64,000 bases of DNA from Vulcanimicrobiales bacterium (GTDB taxonomy: Bacteria; Vulcanimicrobiota; Vulcanimicrobiia; Vulcanimicrobiales; Vulcanimicrobiaceae), in contig JBBQQR010000007.1 in assembly GCA_038215615.1 (NCBI GenBank), forward strand, positions 1 through 64,000, given 5' to 3'. Positions 9,001 through 12,000 of this stretch are shown piece by piece. The position numbers are program-made. Numbering within the stretch: the stretch's first letter is position 1; each line of letters starts with the position of its first letter.

Positions 9001-12000
9001 GCAGCCACGGCAGCGCCGGATGCTCGAAATGCTCTCCGGCCATATATTCGCGCATTCCACCGGCAGCGTGCGCGATAATACGGCGCGTCTTTGGATCGAC
9101 GTCGAGAACGAGCACCGAGCCGGTTGCGAGGTAACACGAGATTTTCTTTGCCAGATAGCGCACGTCGTCTGAAGGCGAGCGCACCTCGACCGCAAGCTCC
9201 GGCGAAAGCGGCGGTTTCTCCCGACCTTTACCCTGGAGCGCTTGCCGGCGCTCGCGGCTGAGAAACGCGACGTCCGGAACGAACTCCGTCTTCTTGGCGC
9301 CTACGATGGCACCGGGGTCGAACCGCACTTCCGAGACGACAAACCCCTGCGCTCCCGCGCAGGCGCTGATCGCTCTTGCCATGGCAGCTTGAACGAGGCC
9401 ATGGCTCAGTTTTGGGCTCACTTTGGGATAGGACCGGCCATCGAGGTACTCGATCTCGGGCTTGTCGCGCATCGCTGTCGCCATACTCTGCATCTCACCC
9501 GATACTATCACGACGAGTGTAAAAAGAAAAAAGGCGCCGGAGCGCCTTTTCTTGACTGCGGCGCGCCTTAGGTAAGTGCGCCTTCTTTGATGCCCGAGCG
9601 GATTTGACTGCGCAGTTCGGGCGTGTCTTCGTGTTTGTGCACTCTGACCGCGTGCGTTACCGCCGAGTCGAGCAACTCTTCTTCGGTATCGGCCGCGATG
9701 GCGATGGTGCAGTTGTTTTCGCTTGGAAATTCGCGGCAATCGATGGTTTTACGAGCCATGGTGACCCCTTTCCACAATGTGGACCTGGAAGGTACCGCTC
9801 GCTTGGACCGGGCTCCTCCAACCCTAGAAGGGCAGCAACTTTCGCGCTTGGGGCGTGTCCTGGTATTCAACGGTAAGGATTGCGCGCACGTGCGTGCGGG
9901 CGGCGTTCGCGTCCGCCGTGCCGATTTTCCCCAGCGTCGTATACATATCAAACAGCAGCTGCGGCAAGTCGCGGTCGCGCGGATAGACCTTGTGCATGTC
10001 GTCGATCGCCGTGGCGATCTGCAGCGCAGCGCCGCTTTCTTGCGTCGTATAGCCGTAGCCGATCATGAAATTAACGCGCTTGAGCTCGTTTTGAATGCCG
10101 AGAATCGACATGCCCAGCGGGCCGAAATATTCGTCGGCCGGCGCGAGCGTTGTTAAATAGACATCGTGCGGCTGCGACCTGATGCTCGCGATGAGCGGCG
10201 GCGCATTTGCGAGGCGCAGCCTGTTGAGCACAGTCTGCGCGTTGGCTTGGTCGCCCTGCGTATAGCCTTCCGCACCGGCGGCGGCATTCTGCAGCGCATT
10301 GAGAAAGGAAGGCCCCCAGGTTGACGGCAGATTGGCAATCGGAAACGTGGACGCGTTCGCGTGTACGAACGCCAAGCTCCGCCACGATGCGTCTCCGCTG
10401 ATGAGATAGCCGCGCCAGTTCGCCTCGACTCGCTCCAACTGCGCGTTCGCATCGTGCGGATACGCTTGCAACAACGCAGCGGCGTCTTCATCGGCAAATT
10501 GCGCGAGTGCGATAGGATCTTCGATCGCGTCGACGCGCGTGAGCAAGTCTTTGGCCTTCGTTTGCTCCGCGCGATCGGGGTTGTTCTTCTGCACGTACAG
10601 TGCCGCCTCGCGTACCCACCACGGTACGGCTTCGTGATTGATGAGCGGATCGTAATGCAACGCCGACGCCATGTCGACTGTCAGCTGCGCCAGATGAGCG
10701 TATCCAGGGTCATTCGGCAACTGCAGCGAGTACGCACGGCCGGCGTTAAAGATTGTCGAGAGATATTCTTGCTGATTGAAAAACGTCCAGCCCTGCACCG
10801 TACCTTTTTCGAAAGAGGCTTTCATGAGCGCGTAGAGCTTCGCCGGATCGGCCATGAGTGTCGCGTTCGCACGCAACGGCAACAGCAGTGTGAGCGCTAC
10901 CAGAGCTGTCACGGTGAGCCTGTGGAACCACGCCCGAGCCTGCCAAGGGCTATGTCGCATCATCCAATACCATTCCAAGTTTATTACTCGAAATGGCGTT
11001 CTTGAGTTCCCTGGCAATCCGGCGCCCGGTCGACATGGGCTCCGAGTAATTCAGGTACGAGTACGGCGAACCGTCGATGAAGAGATTGGTTCCGGCCACA
11101 ATGCGGGCGGAGATCTCCATCACGAAAAACTGCATGTCCGGCGTGATGATGGTCTCGATGCAGAAGGCGCCGAAAAGTCCCTTCGGACCGCAAATCTCTT
11201 TGCTGACGCGCACGACCGCCTCGCCCATGCGGTAAGCTTCCGCCAGCATCGATTCGCGCAGCGACACCGGCGAGTTGCCGACGACCACGTATGAAGGACT
11301 GACGTCCATGCCTTCCTGCGCCGCCGCCGGGATGCGCCCCAGCGAGTCGACATTGGTTTCATACCGGCGGTCCATGCTCATGATCTCGAGCCGGTCTTCC
11401 AGCGGCGAGTAAAAGTAATGCACGTAGAGGGGAACGCCGACTATATACTCTTGGATGATGTGCTCTTCTTTAAGGTGAGCCGCCCGGGATTCGAAGTCTG
11501 CGGTGTCGCGGATGAACATGTAACCCTTGCCGCCCTGCGCGCCGTAAAGCTTCACGATAACGGGGCGGTCGATGTCGCTGCCGGTCTGAAATTGACGCGG
11601 CAGCGTGAGCCCCGCCCGCGACAGCCACTGGCGCTGAAGTTCACGGCTCGCTTCCCAGTCGAGCACGGCTTTGTTTCCAAAATACGGTACCGTCATGCGC
11701 TTGTGTTCGGCGAGCGATAGATACGCCACGAACGAACCGTGTGGCACGATGATAATTTTACGTTTTTCCAGCTGCGGCATCAGCGCCGGGAAATCTTGAT
11801 ACCGCTCGATGCCGATCACCTCGTCTACAAAACGAAATGAACGATACAGCGCTTCGGTGTCACGGTTTGCGATCGCCAGCGTCGCAAATCCCTCGTCGTG
11901 CGCGCCCTTAAGGATTTGCAGCGCCGAGTGAGAGCCCAGCGTGGCTACGGTATAAGCCTGGTCCGGCATTACGTGATCGCGCGTTCGATGGCCGGATTAC

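What a model noticed while it worked through the whole genome (the two positions that open the first line are those of the whole stretch)
10950..11969. Two archaeal-type PurP (ATP-grasp, formate-dependent AICAR formyltransferase) homologues, one in the pur operon and one [...]
The genome encodes two PurP-like proteins (DUF1246+DUF1297): g00936 at the end of the purB-purC-purL-purQ operon and g02043 (C29:7902-9029) inside the urate/allantoin catabolic cluster, beside a normal bifunctional PurH. I read g00936 as a folate-independent, formate- and ATP-dependent AICAR formyltransferase of archaeal origin that works in a bacterium, and g02043 as a diverged paralogue recruited to purine breakdown or salvage. 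New would be that a whole bacterial phylum uses an enzyme so far treated as archaeal, and that one copy has moved to a catabolic context.
Evidence so far: pfam.tsv: DUF1246+DUF1297 on g00936 (339 aa) and g02043 (375 aa). relatives.tsv: the two families are in 80-81% of 453 Vulcanimicrobiota genomes and 8 of 9 genus genomes, but in 0.5% of 189,784 bacterial and 43% of 10,118 archaeal genomes: the strongest phylum-versus-domain contrast of all families in this genome. PDB by sequence: g00936 matches Pyrococcus PurP PF1517 (2r84) E 2.8e-100 over residues 7-335 and M. jannaschii PurP (2r7k) E 5e-89; g02043 matches 2r7k E 2.4e-56 over 6-374. Context: g00936-g00937-purQ g00938-purL g00939-purC g00940-purB g00941 on one strand; g02043 overlaps by 4 nt the allantoinase puuE g02042, followed by allantoate amidohydrolase g02041, with 8-oxoguanine deamin [...]
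(Added by a program. Inside this text positions count along the whole contig: contig position 1 is position 1 of the stretch shown here. "Call 12" and the like, gene names such as g00115 and contig names such as C1 are that model's own, and its searches are not shown. The text may have been shortened before it was handed on; [...] marks where a part breaks off. The agent that wrote the report below was given it as the finding of a first reader that could run no searches.)

Follow-up and report, generated by a model that had tools for sequence, protein, structure and literature searches.

The report
Archaeal-type PurP gene pair in bacteria
This soil bacterium carries, at the end of its purine-synthesis operon, one half of an ancient two-gene "PurP" pair otherwise described only from archaea, and its relatives show that the second half, now sitting among purine-breakdown genes, used to lie right beside it.

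Summary
ORF 10950-11969 (-) encodes a 339-aa DUF1246+DUF1297 ATP-grasp protein closest to Pyrococcus PF1517. It is the next-to-last gene of a purB-purC-purL-purQ-purS-purP operon, and a second copy lies on contig C29 beside puuE.

The interpretation needs three corrections.

- **The two copies are not a recent duplication.** g00936 carries the signature of archaeal "cluster I / PurP II" and g02043 that of "cluster II / PurP III".
- **The catabolic position is derived.** In 21 of 27 other genomes of the class, the cluster II gene lies within 3.5 kb downstream of the cluster I gene in the pur operon. Only this genus and one other have it among urate/allantoin genes.
- **The range is one class, not the phylum.** It is found in 325 of 332 genomes of the class against 1 of 69 elsewhere in the phylum. 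CPR bacteria carry the same adjacent pair.

Trees place the class as one clade in both halves, next to DPANN and CPR sequences and inside archaeal diversity.

PurH, PurN, FolD and folate synthesis are present. PurT, Fhs and PurO were not found. The most likely role is a formate- and ATP-dependent AICAR formylation running beside PurH, probably with both proteins acting together. Activity is untested. This is a new member of a known kind.

The parts
10950..11969 (-). purP, cluster I (PurP II type): ATP-grasp formate-AICAR ligase homologue, 339 aa (P0001)
   Evidence: Pfam DUF1246+DUF1297. PDB 2r84 E 2.8e-100. His14, Ser79, Asn232, Ser240 and Arg289 match Mj His27, Ser94, Asn258, Ser266 and Arg314; the loop reads GAQGGKG. 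Falls in the cluster I half of the tree.
11969..12436 (-). Fused double PurS (g00937, P0002), 155 aa. Its TAA stop overlaps the purP ATG (TAATG).
   Evidence: No Pfam or NCBIfam hit at default thresholds; weak PurS hit, E 0.021. Conserved across 19 class regions. AF2 model pLDDT 83; Foldseek matches the large PurL over its full length (prob 1.0) and PurS over half its length. Junction sequence.
12454..13347 (-). purQ (the ORF as listed; the true start is probably near 13212, because the family match begins at residue 46)
   Evidence: GATase_5 E 1.3e-40; TIGR01737 193.6 bits against cut-off 177.8
13215..15335 (-). purL (small PurL)
   Evidence: TIGR01736 560 bits against cut-off 525.75
15328..16530 (-). 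purC, 400 aa, with a weak PurE-like C-terminal stretch (residues 271-341)
   Evidence: SAICAR_synt E 1.6e-59; AIRC 23 bits, below its cut-off of 30. The true PurE is at C39.
16527..17951 (-). purB
   Evidence: TIGR00928 362.2 bits against cut-off 326.2
17948..19135 (-). holA (DNA polymerase III delta), first gene of the conserved block
   Evidence: TIGR01128 92.9 bits against cut-off 80. Syntenic in class genomes.
9824..10963 (-). orf397: conserved class-specific protein with a signal-peptide-like N-terminus. Its ATG at 10963 overlaps the last 14 nt of purP. In relatives it sits between the two purP genes.
   Evidence: Translation. Junction. 37-86% identity in the class regions that hold it. 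No family. Atlas clusters are Vulcanimicrobiota only.
9527..9552 (-). Terminator-like hairpin (11 pairs plus a T run) about 270 nt after orf397; likely end of the operon
   Evidence: Pattern scan. This is a consensus match only: 19 sites were found against 14.4 expected.

Best explanation
g00936 is the cluster I (PurP II, PF1517-like) member of the ancient PurP cluster I + cluster II gene pair.

**Origin (inferred from trees and synteny).** An ancestor of this bacterial class received the pair as two adjacent genes from the archaeal/DPANN-CPR gene pool. The pair was placed behind purS at the end of the pur operon and has been inherited vertically since.

**Mechanism (inferred from the solved M. 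jannaschii enzyme and conserved residues).**
- The protein is an ATP-grasp ligase. It activates formate with ATP, presumably as formyl phosphate (the intermediate itself is recalled, not taken from a paper read here), and formylates the 5-amino group of AICAR to give FAICAR.
- FAICAR is then closed to IMP by the cyclohydrolase half of PurH. No PurO was found.
- It probably acts together with the cluster II protein (g02043), as a hetero-oligomer.
- In this genome it would be the only entry of free formate into purines, because neither PurT nor formate-THF ligase was found. It runs beside the folate route (FolD, PurN, PurH), not instead of it.

**Position of the partner gene.** The partner lies among urate/allantoin genes because unrelated genes accumulated between the two purP genes. 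That was followed by a local rearrangement in this genus. It is not a new catabolic function.
For: **Family and residues**
-.
- His14, Ser79, Asn232, Ser240 and Arg289 align with Mj His27, Ser94, Asn258, Ser266 and Arg314. Brown et al. 2011 list these as formyl, phosphate and carboxamide contacts.
- They are invariant or nearly invariant in a 20-row alignment.

**Cluster II signature of g02043**
- His at the 258 position and a loop 2-3 residues longer.
- His23, Ser280 and Arg330 are kept.

**Operon**
- holA-purB-purC-purL-purQ-purS-purP_I is syntenic in 19 of 20 regions.
- The start and stop codons around purP overlap those of its neighbours.

**Pair linkage**
- The cluster II gene is within 3.5 kb downstream, on the same strand, in 21 of 27 other class genomes. 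It is directly adjacent in 5 of them, including the two deepest families.
- In 72 of 80 CPR/DPANN loci the cluster II gene is in the locus. It is downstream on the same strand in 71.
- In 5 genomes where the genes are 23-49 kb apart, the cluster II gene is still downstream on the same strand.

**Selection**
- PurP_I is the most conserved protein of the operon. Its median identity is 82%, against 71 (purB), 69 (purC), 66 (purQ) and 57 (purL), over 18 regions outside the genus.

**Phylogeny**
- The class is one clade (100*) in both halves, with the same f3, f2, f1 branching order.
- It sits inside a clade (97* for I, 96* for II) with DPANN and CPR only.
- All named representatives outside that clade are archaeal.

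**Pathway context in the own genome (100% complete)**
- Present: PurH, PurN and PurM, FolD, FolK and FolP.
- Not found: PurO, a PurT above cut-off, Fhs.

**Complex prediction**
- The verdict is that the model supports binding and does not show it.
- ipSAE was 0.61 in three runs; the best of 3 controls was 0.28.
- That mark was reached by 116 of 157 solved complexes and 2 of 215 mismatched pairs. The counts hold only roughly, because my own alignments were used.
- The runs agree in at least 87% of contacts, and the partner's pLDDT is at least 85.
- Homo-oligomer structures of PurP are solved, so the pass may be likeness from memory.

**Literature**
- PurP II and III always co-occur in archaea, and a II+III heterohexamer has been proposed (Cruz et al. 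2019, passages read).
Against: - No activity or expression data exist. No RNA run was listed.
- PF1517 (cluster I) and PF0421 (cluster II) of P. furiosus were each reported without AICAR formyltransferase activity. I read this only as cited by Brown 2011 and Cruz 2019. The original paper was not held.
- The score against all six NCBIfam formate-AICAR ligase models is below their curated cut-offs (best 382.2 against 580).
- The first residue of the glycine loop is Gln, or Ala/His in relatives, not the Lys/Arg of the published consensus.
- PurH is present in 121 of 121 class genomes, so the pair is not needed to close the pathway.
- The complex model cannot tell a heteromer from the homomer-like packing of paralogues.
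- In this genus the two genes are unlinked, so coupled expression is not required.
Confidence: 0.6

Rival explanations
1. The pair belongs to purine nucleotide synthesis but does not use formate, or does not formylate AICAR. The cluster I protein binds AICAR and ATP but takes another one-carbon donor or another acyl substrate. The cluster II protein carries out a different step, for example ring closure to IMP or a reaction on a related imidazole nucleotide.
For: - Both P. furiosus proteins were reported inactive with formate. Zhang et al. are cited as proposing another formyl source for PurP II and a distinct role for PurP III (passages of Cruz 2019 and Brown 2011).
- Cluster II lacks the glycine loop and replaces the carboxamide-contacting Asn by His.
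- Brown et al. note a loose link between duplicate purP genes and a missing IMP cyclohydrolase.
- One bacterial genome with the pair had neither PurH nor PurO (G403).
Against: - The formate contacts His27 and Arg314 are kept in both proteins.
- PurH, with its cyclohydrolase half, is present in 121 of 121 class genomes and in 4 of 5 CPR genomes with the pair. A missing cyclohydrolase therefore cannot be the reason for keeping cluster II here.
- Cell extracts of Sulfolobus, which has only the pair, incorporate formate into IMP (Brown 2011 passage).
Confidence: 0.22
2. One reading: g02043 has been recruited to purine breakdown or salvage in the urate/allantoin cluster and now has a function separate from g00936.
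For: - In all 4 genomes of the genus examined (G000, G043, G091, G061), the cluster II gene is the first gene of a puuE / allantoate-amidohydrolase unit. It is divergent from 8-oxoguanine deaminase and overlaps puuE by 4 nt in the window's genome.
- In genus g34 it lies at the edge of the same cluster.
Against: - The position is derived and confined to 2 of about 24 genera sampled.
- Other genera have unrelated cargo at the same spot: cydAB or an aminotransferase.
- The protein keeps all cluster II signature residues.
- Its terminal branch is not longer than that of relatives still in the pur operon: 0.29 against 0.19-0.38.
Confidence: 0.1
3. The genes are a redundant relic of an old transfer, with no role of their own beside PurH.
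For: PurH, PurN, FolD and folate synthesis are all present.
Against: - Both genes are intact in 325 of 332 class genomes.
- PurP_I is the most conserved protein of the operon.
- Branching is parallel in both trees across the class.
Confidence: 0.04

Closest known systems
Pyrococcus furiosus PF1517 (PurP cluster Ib of Brown et al. 2011; 'PurP II' of Cruz et al. 2019; PDB 2r84-2r87)
   Same: Best solved match (E 2.8e-100 over residues 7-335). Same domain pair. Asn at the 258 position and a short glycine loop. Partnered with a cluster II paralogue. Linked to pur genes.
   Different: Bacterial host that also has PurH and folates. Gln instead of Lys at the first loop position. PF1517 was reported inactive alone; nothing is known for this protein.
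Methanocaldococcus jannaschii MJ0136 PurP (cluster Ia / 'PurP I'; PDB 2r7k-2r7n), the only member with shown formate- and ATP-dependent FAICAR synthetase activity
   Same: E 5.1e-89. All listed substrate contacts are kept.
   Different: MJ0136 works alone, with PurO, in an organism without PurH or folates. The window's protein belongs to the branch that always comes with a cluster II partner.
PurP cluster II / 'PurP III' (for example P. furiosus PF0421), closest to the second copy g02043
   Same: His at the 258 position and a loop 2-3 residues longer. Falls in the cluster II half of the tree.
   Different: In this genus it is separated from its partner and heads a puuE operon. Its function is unknown in any organism.
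The adjacent PurP I+II pair of CPR bacteria and DPANN archaea
   Same: Same two genes in the same order. Sister group in both trees. PurH is often present too.
   Different: About 50% identity. Those hosts have tiny genomes. Here the host is a free-living class with complete folate and purine pathways, and the pair has been split by insertions.
PurT / PurN duality at step 3 of purine synthesis (E. coli)
   Same: An ATP-grasp, formate-dependent enzyme beside a folate-dependent one for the same formylation. This is established knowledge and is also summarised in Brown 2011.
   Different: A different step and a different family. No PurT above cut-off was found in this genome.

Membership tests
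PurP family, cluster I (Ia/Ib; PurP I/II) | DUF1246 + DUF1297 ATP-grasp architecture over the full length | tested here: met
   Pfam 133.4 and 227.1 bits against cut-offs of 25 and 23.8
PurP family, cluster I (Ia/Ib; PurP I/II) | Formyl contacts His27 and Arg314 (Mj numbering) | tested here: met
   His14 and Arg289; invariant in a 20-row alignment
PurP family, cluster I (Ia/Ib; PurP I/II) | AICAR phosphate contacts Ser94 and Ser266 | tested here: met
   Ser79 and Ser240
PurP family, cluster I (Ia/Ib; PurP I/II) | Asn258 contacting the AICAR carboxamide (His in cluster II) | tested here: met
   Asn232
PurP family, cluster I (Ia/Ib; PurP I/II) | Loop (K/R)GG(K/R)G at positions 161-165 | tested here: inconclusive
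   QGGKG: the length and glycines are kept, but the first residue is Gln (Ala or His in relatives). Several archaeal representatives also depart at this position.
PurP family, cluster I (Ia/Ib; PurP I/II) | Placement in the cluster I half of a joint tree | tested here: met
   I/II split at 100*
NCBIfam 'formate--phosphoribosylaminoimidazolecarboxamide ligase' equivalogs | Score at or above the curated cut-off | tested here: not met
   Best 382.2 bits against 580. All six models are below cut-off. NCBI nevertheless gives close homologues that name.
FAICAR synthetase (EC 6.3.4.23) as an enzyme | ATP- and formate-dependent conversion of AICAR to FAICAR | not testable with these tools
The closest solved relative was reported inactive.
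PurP cluster II (PurP III), for g02043 | His at position 258, a loop two or more residues longer without the GG motif, and placement in the cluster II half of the tree | tested here: met
   His272; loop AQHAKIAFERA; trees
PurS, for g00937 | PurS fold, position beside purQ and purL, and no other PurS in the genome | tested here: met
   Foldseek prob 1.0 to the large PurL over the full length and to PurS chains over half the length. Gene order. No PurS above cut-off elsewhere in the genome. Pfam PurS score of 15.4 bits is below the cut-off of 22.2.

The most novel reading that the evidence does not exclude
In this bacterial class the cluster I and cluster II PurP proteins form one hetero-oligomeric enzyme. 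That enzyme is the main, formate-fed route to purine C2, and PurH is kept chiefly for its cyclohydrolase half.

The class is free-living and aerobic. From memory, not checked here, it has a cultured member. It would then be the first tractable system for the role of the PurP II/III pair, a question open since 2008.

There is a clean predicted read-out. With no PurT and no formate-THF ligase, 13C-formate should label purine C2 but not C8.
Probability: 0.3. Interest if true: 0.7.

Novelty: new member of a known kind. Interest (0 to 1): 0.5.

Why it matters
The papers read here (2011, 2014, 2019) treat PurP as an archaeal signature and leave the role of the always-paired PurP II and III unsolved. 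Each was inactive alone in the one test reported.

A whole class of ordinary, free-living bacteria has kept both genes intact in its purine operon, beside a complete folate route. The cluster I protein is more conserved than PurB, PurC or PurL. This shows that the pair does something the PurH route does not.

It also offers mesophilic proteins and a host with a built-in backup (PurH) for genetic and labelling tests.

Finally, it documents an old inter-domain transfer of a two-gene unit. It shows that a 'catabolic context' can arise simply by insertions between two partner genes.

Tried and rejected
- **Expression.** The look-up of sequencing runs listed no RNA holder.
- **Zhang, White and Ealick 2008.** It could not be read by DOI or by PMC id. 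Its results are quoted second-hand.
- **g00937 as a PurP-linked cyclohydrolase.** Considered and rejected: it is a fused double PurS.
- **orf397 as a functional partner.** No family and a signal-peptide-like start. It is absent from the deepest families and from CPR/DPANN pairs. It is treated as cargo.
- **Folate auxotrophy as the reason for PurP.** Rejected: FolK, FolP, FolD, PurN and PurH are present.
- **PurP pair replacing PurH in the class.** Rejected: PurH is in 121 of 121 genomes.
- **One transfer into all bacteria.** The AU test rejects a single bacterial clade for cluster I (lnL difference 56.5, p-AU 0.0071). The group was named after the tree had been seen.
- **Names for representative clusters.** These were sparse: 3 of the first 10 clusters and 7 of the second 10 carried any name, and 3 and 5 of them named an organism. 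The closest unnamed representative, P0126, was identified through genome contigs as Peribacteria-like.
- **Literature.** No paper linking purP with Eremiobacterota/Vulcanimicrobiota or with Patescibacteria/Peribacteria was found. This covers only the held open-access library.
- **Technical errors.** One search failed on a wrong reference and was repeated without it. Searches were argument errors.
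Full report
**Observation**

The ORF at 10950-11969 (minus strand, ATG start, 339 aa) is real.
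- It carries DUF1246 and DUF1297, the two Pfam families that make up PurP, at E 5.5e-39 and 1.6e-67. It also has a weak ATP-grasp_3 match.
- By sequence it is closest to the solved PurP protein PF1517 of Pyrococcus furiosus (2r84, E 2.8e-100, residues 7-335). Next is the characterised M. jannaschii enzyme (2r7k, E 5.1e-89).
- Six NCBIfam models of formate--phosphoribosylaminoimidazolecarboxamide ligase match at up to 382 bits. All are below their curated cut-offs of 482-603.

Upstream on the same strand lie holA, purB, purC, purL, purQ and a 155-aa ORF.
- The stop of that ORF overlaps the purP start (TAATG).
- The start of the next ORF downstream overlaps the last 14 nt of purP.
- A terminator-like hairpin follows at 9552-9527 (pattern match only).

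The genome (100% complete, 54 contigs) has exactly two DUF1297 matches. The second is on C29:7902-9029 (375 aa). Its neighbours are:
- puuE, which it overlaps by 4 nt;
- an allantoate-amidohydrolase-like gene downstream;
- an 8-oxoguanine deaminase, divergent from it;
- xanthine dehydrogenase genes and a urate oxidase N-domain gene.

**What the two copies are**

Brown et al. 2011 (PMC3261824; passages read) split archaeal PurP-like proteins into two clusters.
- Cluster Ia/Ib has Asn258 and a (K/R)GG(K/R)G loop.
- Cluster II has His258 and a loop two residues longer.
- His27 and Arg314 (formyl contacts) are conserved in both clusters; Ser94 and Ser266 (phosphate contacts) are largely conserved.

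Cruz et al. 2019 (PMC6486802; passages read) call these groups PurP I, II and III.

The window's protein has His14, Ser79, Asn232, Ser240, Arg289 and the loop GAQGGKG. This makes it cluster I, with Gln at the first loop position. The C29 protein has His272 at the 258 position and the longer loop AQHAKIAFERA, and it keeps His23, Ser280 and Arg330. This makes it cluster II.

A joint tree of 136 rows separates the two halves at 100*. The two genes are therefore the old cluster I + cluster II pair, not a duplication within this lineage.

**Range**

In 401 sampled genomes of the phylum, DUF1297 was found in 326.
- By family, without the own genome: 290/296, 5/5 and 29/30 in the three families of the window's class.
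- In the 18 other families of the phylum: 1 of 69.
- By my count from that table, about nine in ten positive genomes show exactly two matches.
- The tallies include 14 genomes flagged as unpublished.

The top 120 homologues are 81-94% identical. Several are already named formate--phosphoribosylaminoimidazolecarboxamide ligase (NCBI) or FAICAR synthetase (JGI) in Vulcanimicrobiaceae, Baltobacteraceae, Tyrphobacter and Rubrimentiphilum MAGs.

**Synteny in the class**

I fetched 31 regions from 27 other genomes, none of them flagged unpublished, and mapped the window's proteins on them.

The block holA-purB-purC-purL-purQ-purS-like-purP_I is kept in 19 of the 20 regions centred on purP_I. The exception is G091, where only purS-like, purP_I and orf397 were found.

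| Position of purP_II | Genomes | Where |
|---|---|---|
| Directly after purP_I | 5 | the two deeper families (G055, G067) and G045, G129, G099 |
| After one inserted gene (orf397) | 7 | G327, G124, G033, G144, G087, G093, G103 |
| After a further 1.4-3.1 kb of cargo | 9 | cydAB in the one insert I read; a class-III aminotransferase in G147; orf397 itself not detected in G059 |
| Not in the pur region | 6 | three genomes of the own genus, two of genus g34, one of g5 |

In the own genus (G043, G091, G061, as in the window's genome) purP_II lies between the 8-oxoguanine deaminase and puuE. In g34 it lies just beyond the urate oxidase gene of the same cluster.

Where both genes are on one contig, they are 23-49 kb apart and purP_II is still downstream on the same strand. 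This holds in 5 of 5 genomes.

The DNA directly downstream of the operon in the window is a pyrimidine-breakdown-like cluster plus a purine/allantoin-type permease (3-7376).

I read this as a site between the two partner genes that has collected unrelated cargo. In this genus the cargo is a nucleobase-catabolism island, with a further local rearrangement that placed purP_II in front of puuE.

**Outside the class**

A scan of species-representative genomes used an alignment led by the nearest outside representative. It returned 80 loci (the best of at least 592), so their make-up is biased towards that query.
- 63 are bacterial by record title. Most are Peribacteria/Peregrinibacteria and other CPR, with a few MAGs labelled Nitrospirota, Gammaproteobacteria or Chlamydiae.
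- 17 are archaeal, mostly DPANN.

In 72 of the 80 loci a cluster II gene is present. It is downstream on the same strand in 71, with an HSP gap of at most 200 nt in 48. Of the 8 loci without it, 4 had under 1 kb of downstream sequence.

Of 5 such bacterial genomes, 4 have PurH and none has PurO. One has neither.

Earlier notes of this scan describe the same pair in several CPR groups. They also led me to the PurP II/III paper.

**Phylogeny**

IQ-TREE (quick search, LG+C20) was run on 48 cluster I rows and on 44 cluster II rows.
- In both, the class is one clade (100*) with the same f3, f2, f1 branching order.
- In both, that clade sits in a larger clade (97* and 96*) that otherwise holds only DPANN and CPR sequences.

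The named representatives outside it are all archaeal: Methanocella, Nitrosocosmicus, Nitrososphaerales, Diapherotrites, Micrarchaeota, Heimdallarchaeota/Asgard and Thermococcus.

An AU test rejects a single clade of all bacterial cluster I rows (p-AU 0.0071). The group was named after the tree had been seen.

Rows left out before tree building:
- representatives that were fragments or lacked the signature residues (for example P0124, P0127-P0129, P0162, P0194, P0210, P0230, P0237, P0244, P0248, P0258);
- most of the 80 loci: 22 bacterial and 13 archaeal loci were used, and fewer.

The trees are rooted only by the sister paralogue or a chosen outgroup, so the donor is not fixed. The data fit one acquisition of the two-gene unit by the ancestor of the class.

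**Pathway context**

| Status in the own genome | Items |
|---|---|
| Present | Bifunctional PurH; PurM-PurN (PurN is just under the TIGR00639 cut-off but over the Pfam one); FolD; FolK and FolP; PurE and a PurK-like gene |
| Not found | PurO; a PurT above cut-off (best 174.8 against 502); formate-THF ligase |

PurH is in 121 of 121 class genomes of at least 90% completeness (3 of them flagged unpublished). The pair therefore runs beside PurH, not instead of it. It would be the only way for free formate to enter purines.

PurP_I is the most conserved protein of the operon. Its median identity to the window's protein is 82% over 18 regions outside the genus. The others are 71 (purB), 69 (purC), 66 (purQ), 57 (purL) and about 70 (purP_II).

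**Do the two proteins act together?**

Cruz et al. found PurP II and III always together in archaea and proposed a heterohexamer. My linkage data extend that to bacteria.

A complex prediction with my own alignments gave the following.
- The verdict is that the model supports binding and does not show it.
- ipSAE was 0.61 in three runs; the best of 3 controls was 0.28.
- That mark was reached by 116 of 157 solved complexes and 2 of 215 mismatched pairs. The counts hold only roughly here.
- The runs agree in at least 87% of contacts, and the partner's pLDDT is at least 85.
- PurP homo-oligomers are solved, so this may reflect likeness. It cannot separate heteromer from homomer-like packing.

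**Verdict**

- The reading as a PurP of archaeal affinity in a bacterial pur operon is supported.
- The claims of a phylum-wide trait and of a paralogue recruited to catabolism are not supported.
- Function remains inferred, because the closest solved relative was reported inactive alone.

The papers read still call PurP archaea-only. Searches for purP together with Eremiobacterota names, Patescibacteria or Peribacteria found no paper that discusses it. These searches cover the open-access library only. Database annotation and earlier notes of this scan already show the pair in bacteria.

I rate it a new member of a known kind, of moderate interest.

Noticed in passing
window 11969-12436 (-): g00937 has no family hit at default thresholds but is a fused double PurS. 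The AF2 model (pLDDT 83) matches the large PurL over the model's full length and single PurS chains over half of it. No canonical PurS was found elsewhere in the genome.
   Followed up: yes
window 15328-16530 (-): purC is 400 aa long and carries a weak PurE-like stretch (residues 271-341; AIRC 23 bits, below cut-off) behind the SAICAR synthetase domain. The true purE lies on C39 next to a PurK-like gene.
   Followed up: partly
window 9824-10963 (-): orf397 is a protein found only in this phylum, with a signal-peptide-like start and no family. It is translationally overlapped with purP. In many relatives it sits exactly between the two purP genes, but it is absent from the deepest families.
   Followed up: partly
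window 3-7376 (+): A cluster that looks like reductive pyrimidine breakdown: Pyr_redox_2 protein, DHO_dh+4Fe-4S protein, amidohydrolase, CN-hydrolase, cytosine/purine/allantoin-type permease and class-III aminotransferase. It lies between the pur operon and, judging by same-genus genomes, the purine-catabolism cluster of C29.
   Followed up: partly
L137:4740-6760 (G135): In several genera about 2.4 kb lies between orf397 and purP_II. In the one insert I read, it holds cytochrome bd oxidase genes (cydAB). The gap between the two purP genes seems to be an insertion hot spot.
   Followed up: partly
G403 (genome of locus L126): A 1.9-Mb bacterial chromosome has the adjacent PurP I+II pair but no match to PurH or PurO. 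It is a natural case in which the pair may have to cover the last two steps.
   Followed up: no
L009:2880-4121 (G000:C24): The purN ORF as called is 413 aa, with about 200 residues (weak GNAT-like hit) before the formyltransferase domain. It overlaps purM, so the true start is probably internal. The TIGR00639 score is just under its cut-off.
   Followed up: no
L154:8143-9253 (G294) and L156:10286-11288 (G103): purP_II of G294 and purP_I of G103 each appear as two adjoining tblastn pieces. This suggests a frameshift or an assembly error.
   Followed up: no
G082 (another class of the phylum): This is the only genome outside the class with a DUF1297 match: a single match at E 1.4e-58, in a 72% complete genome. 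It may be a separate acquisition or contamination.
   Followed up: no
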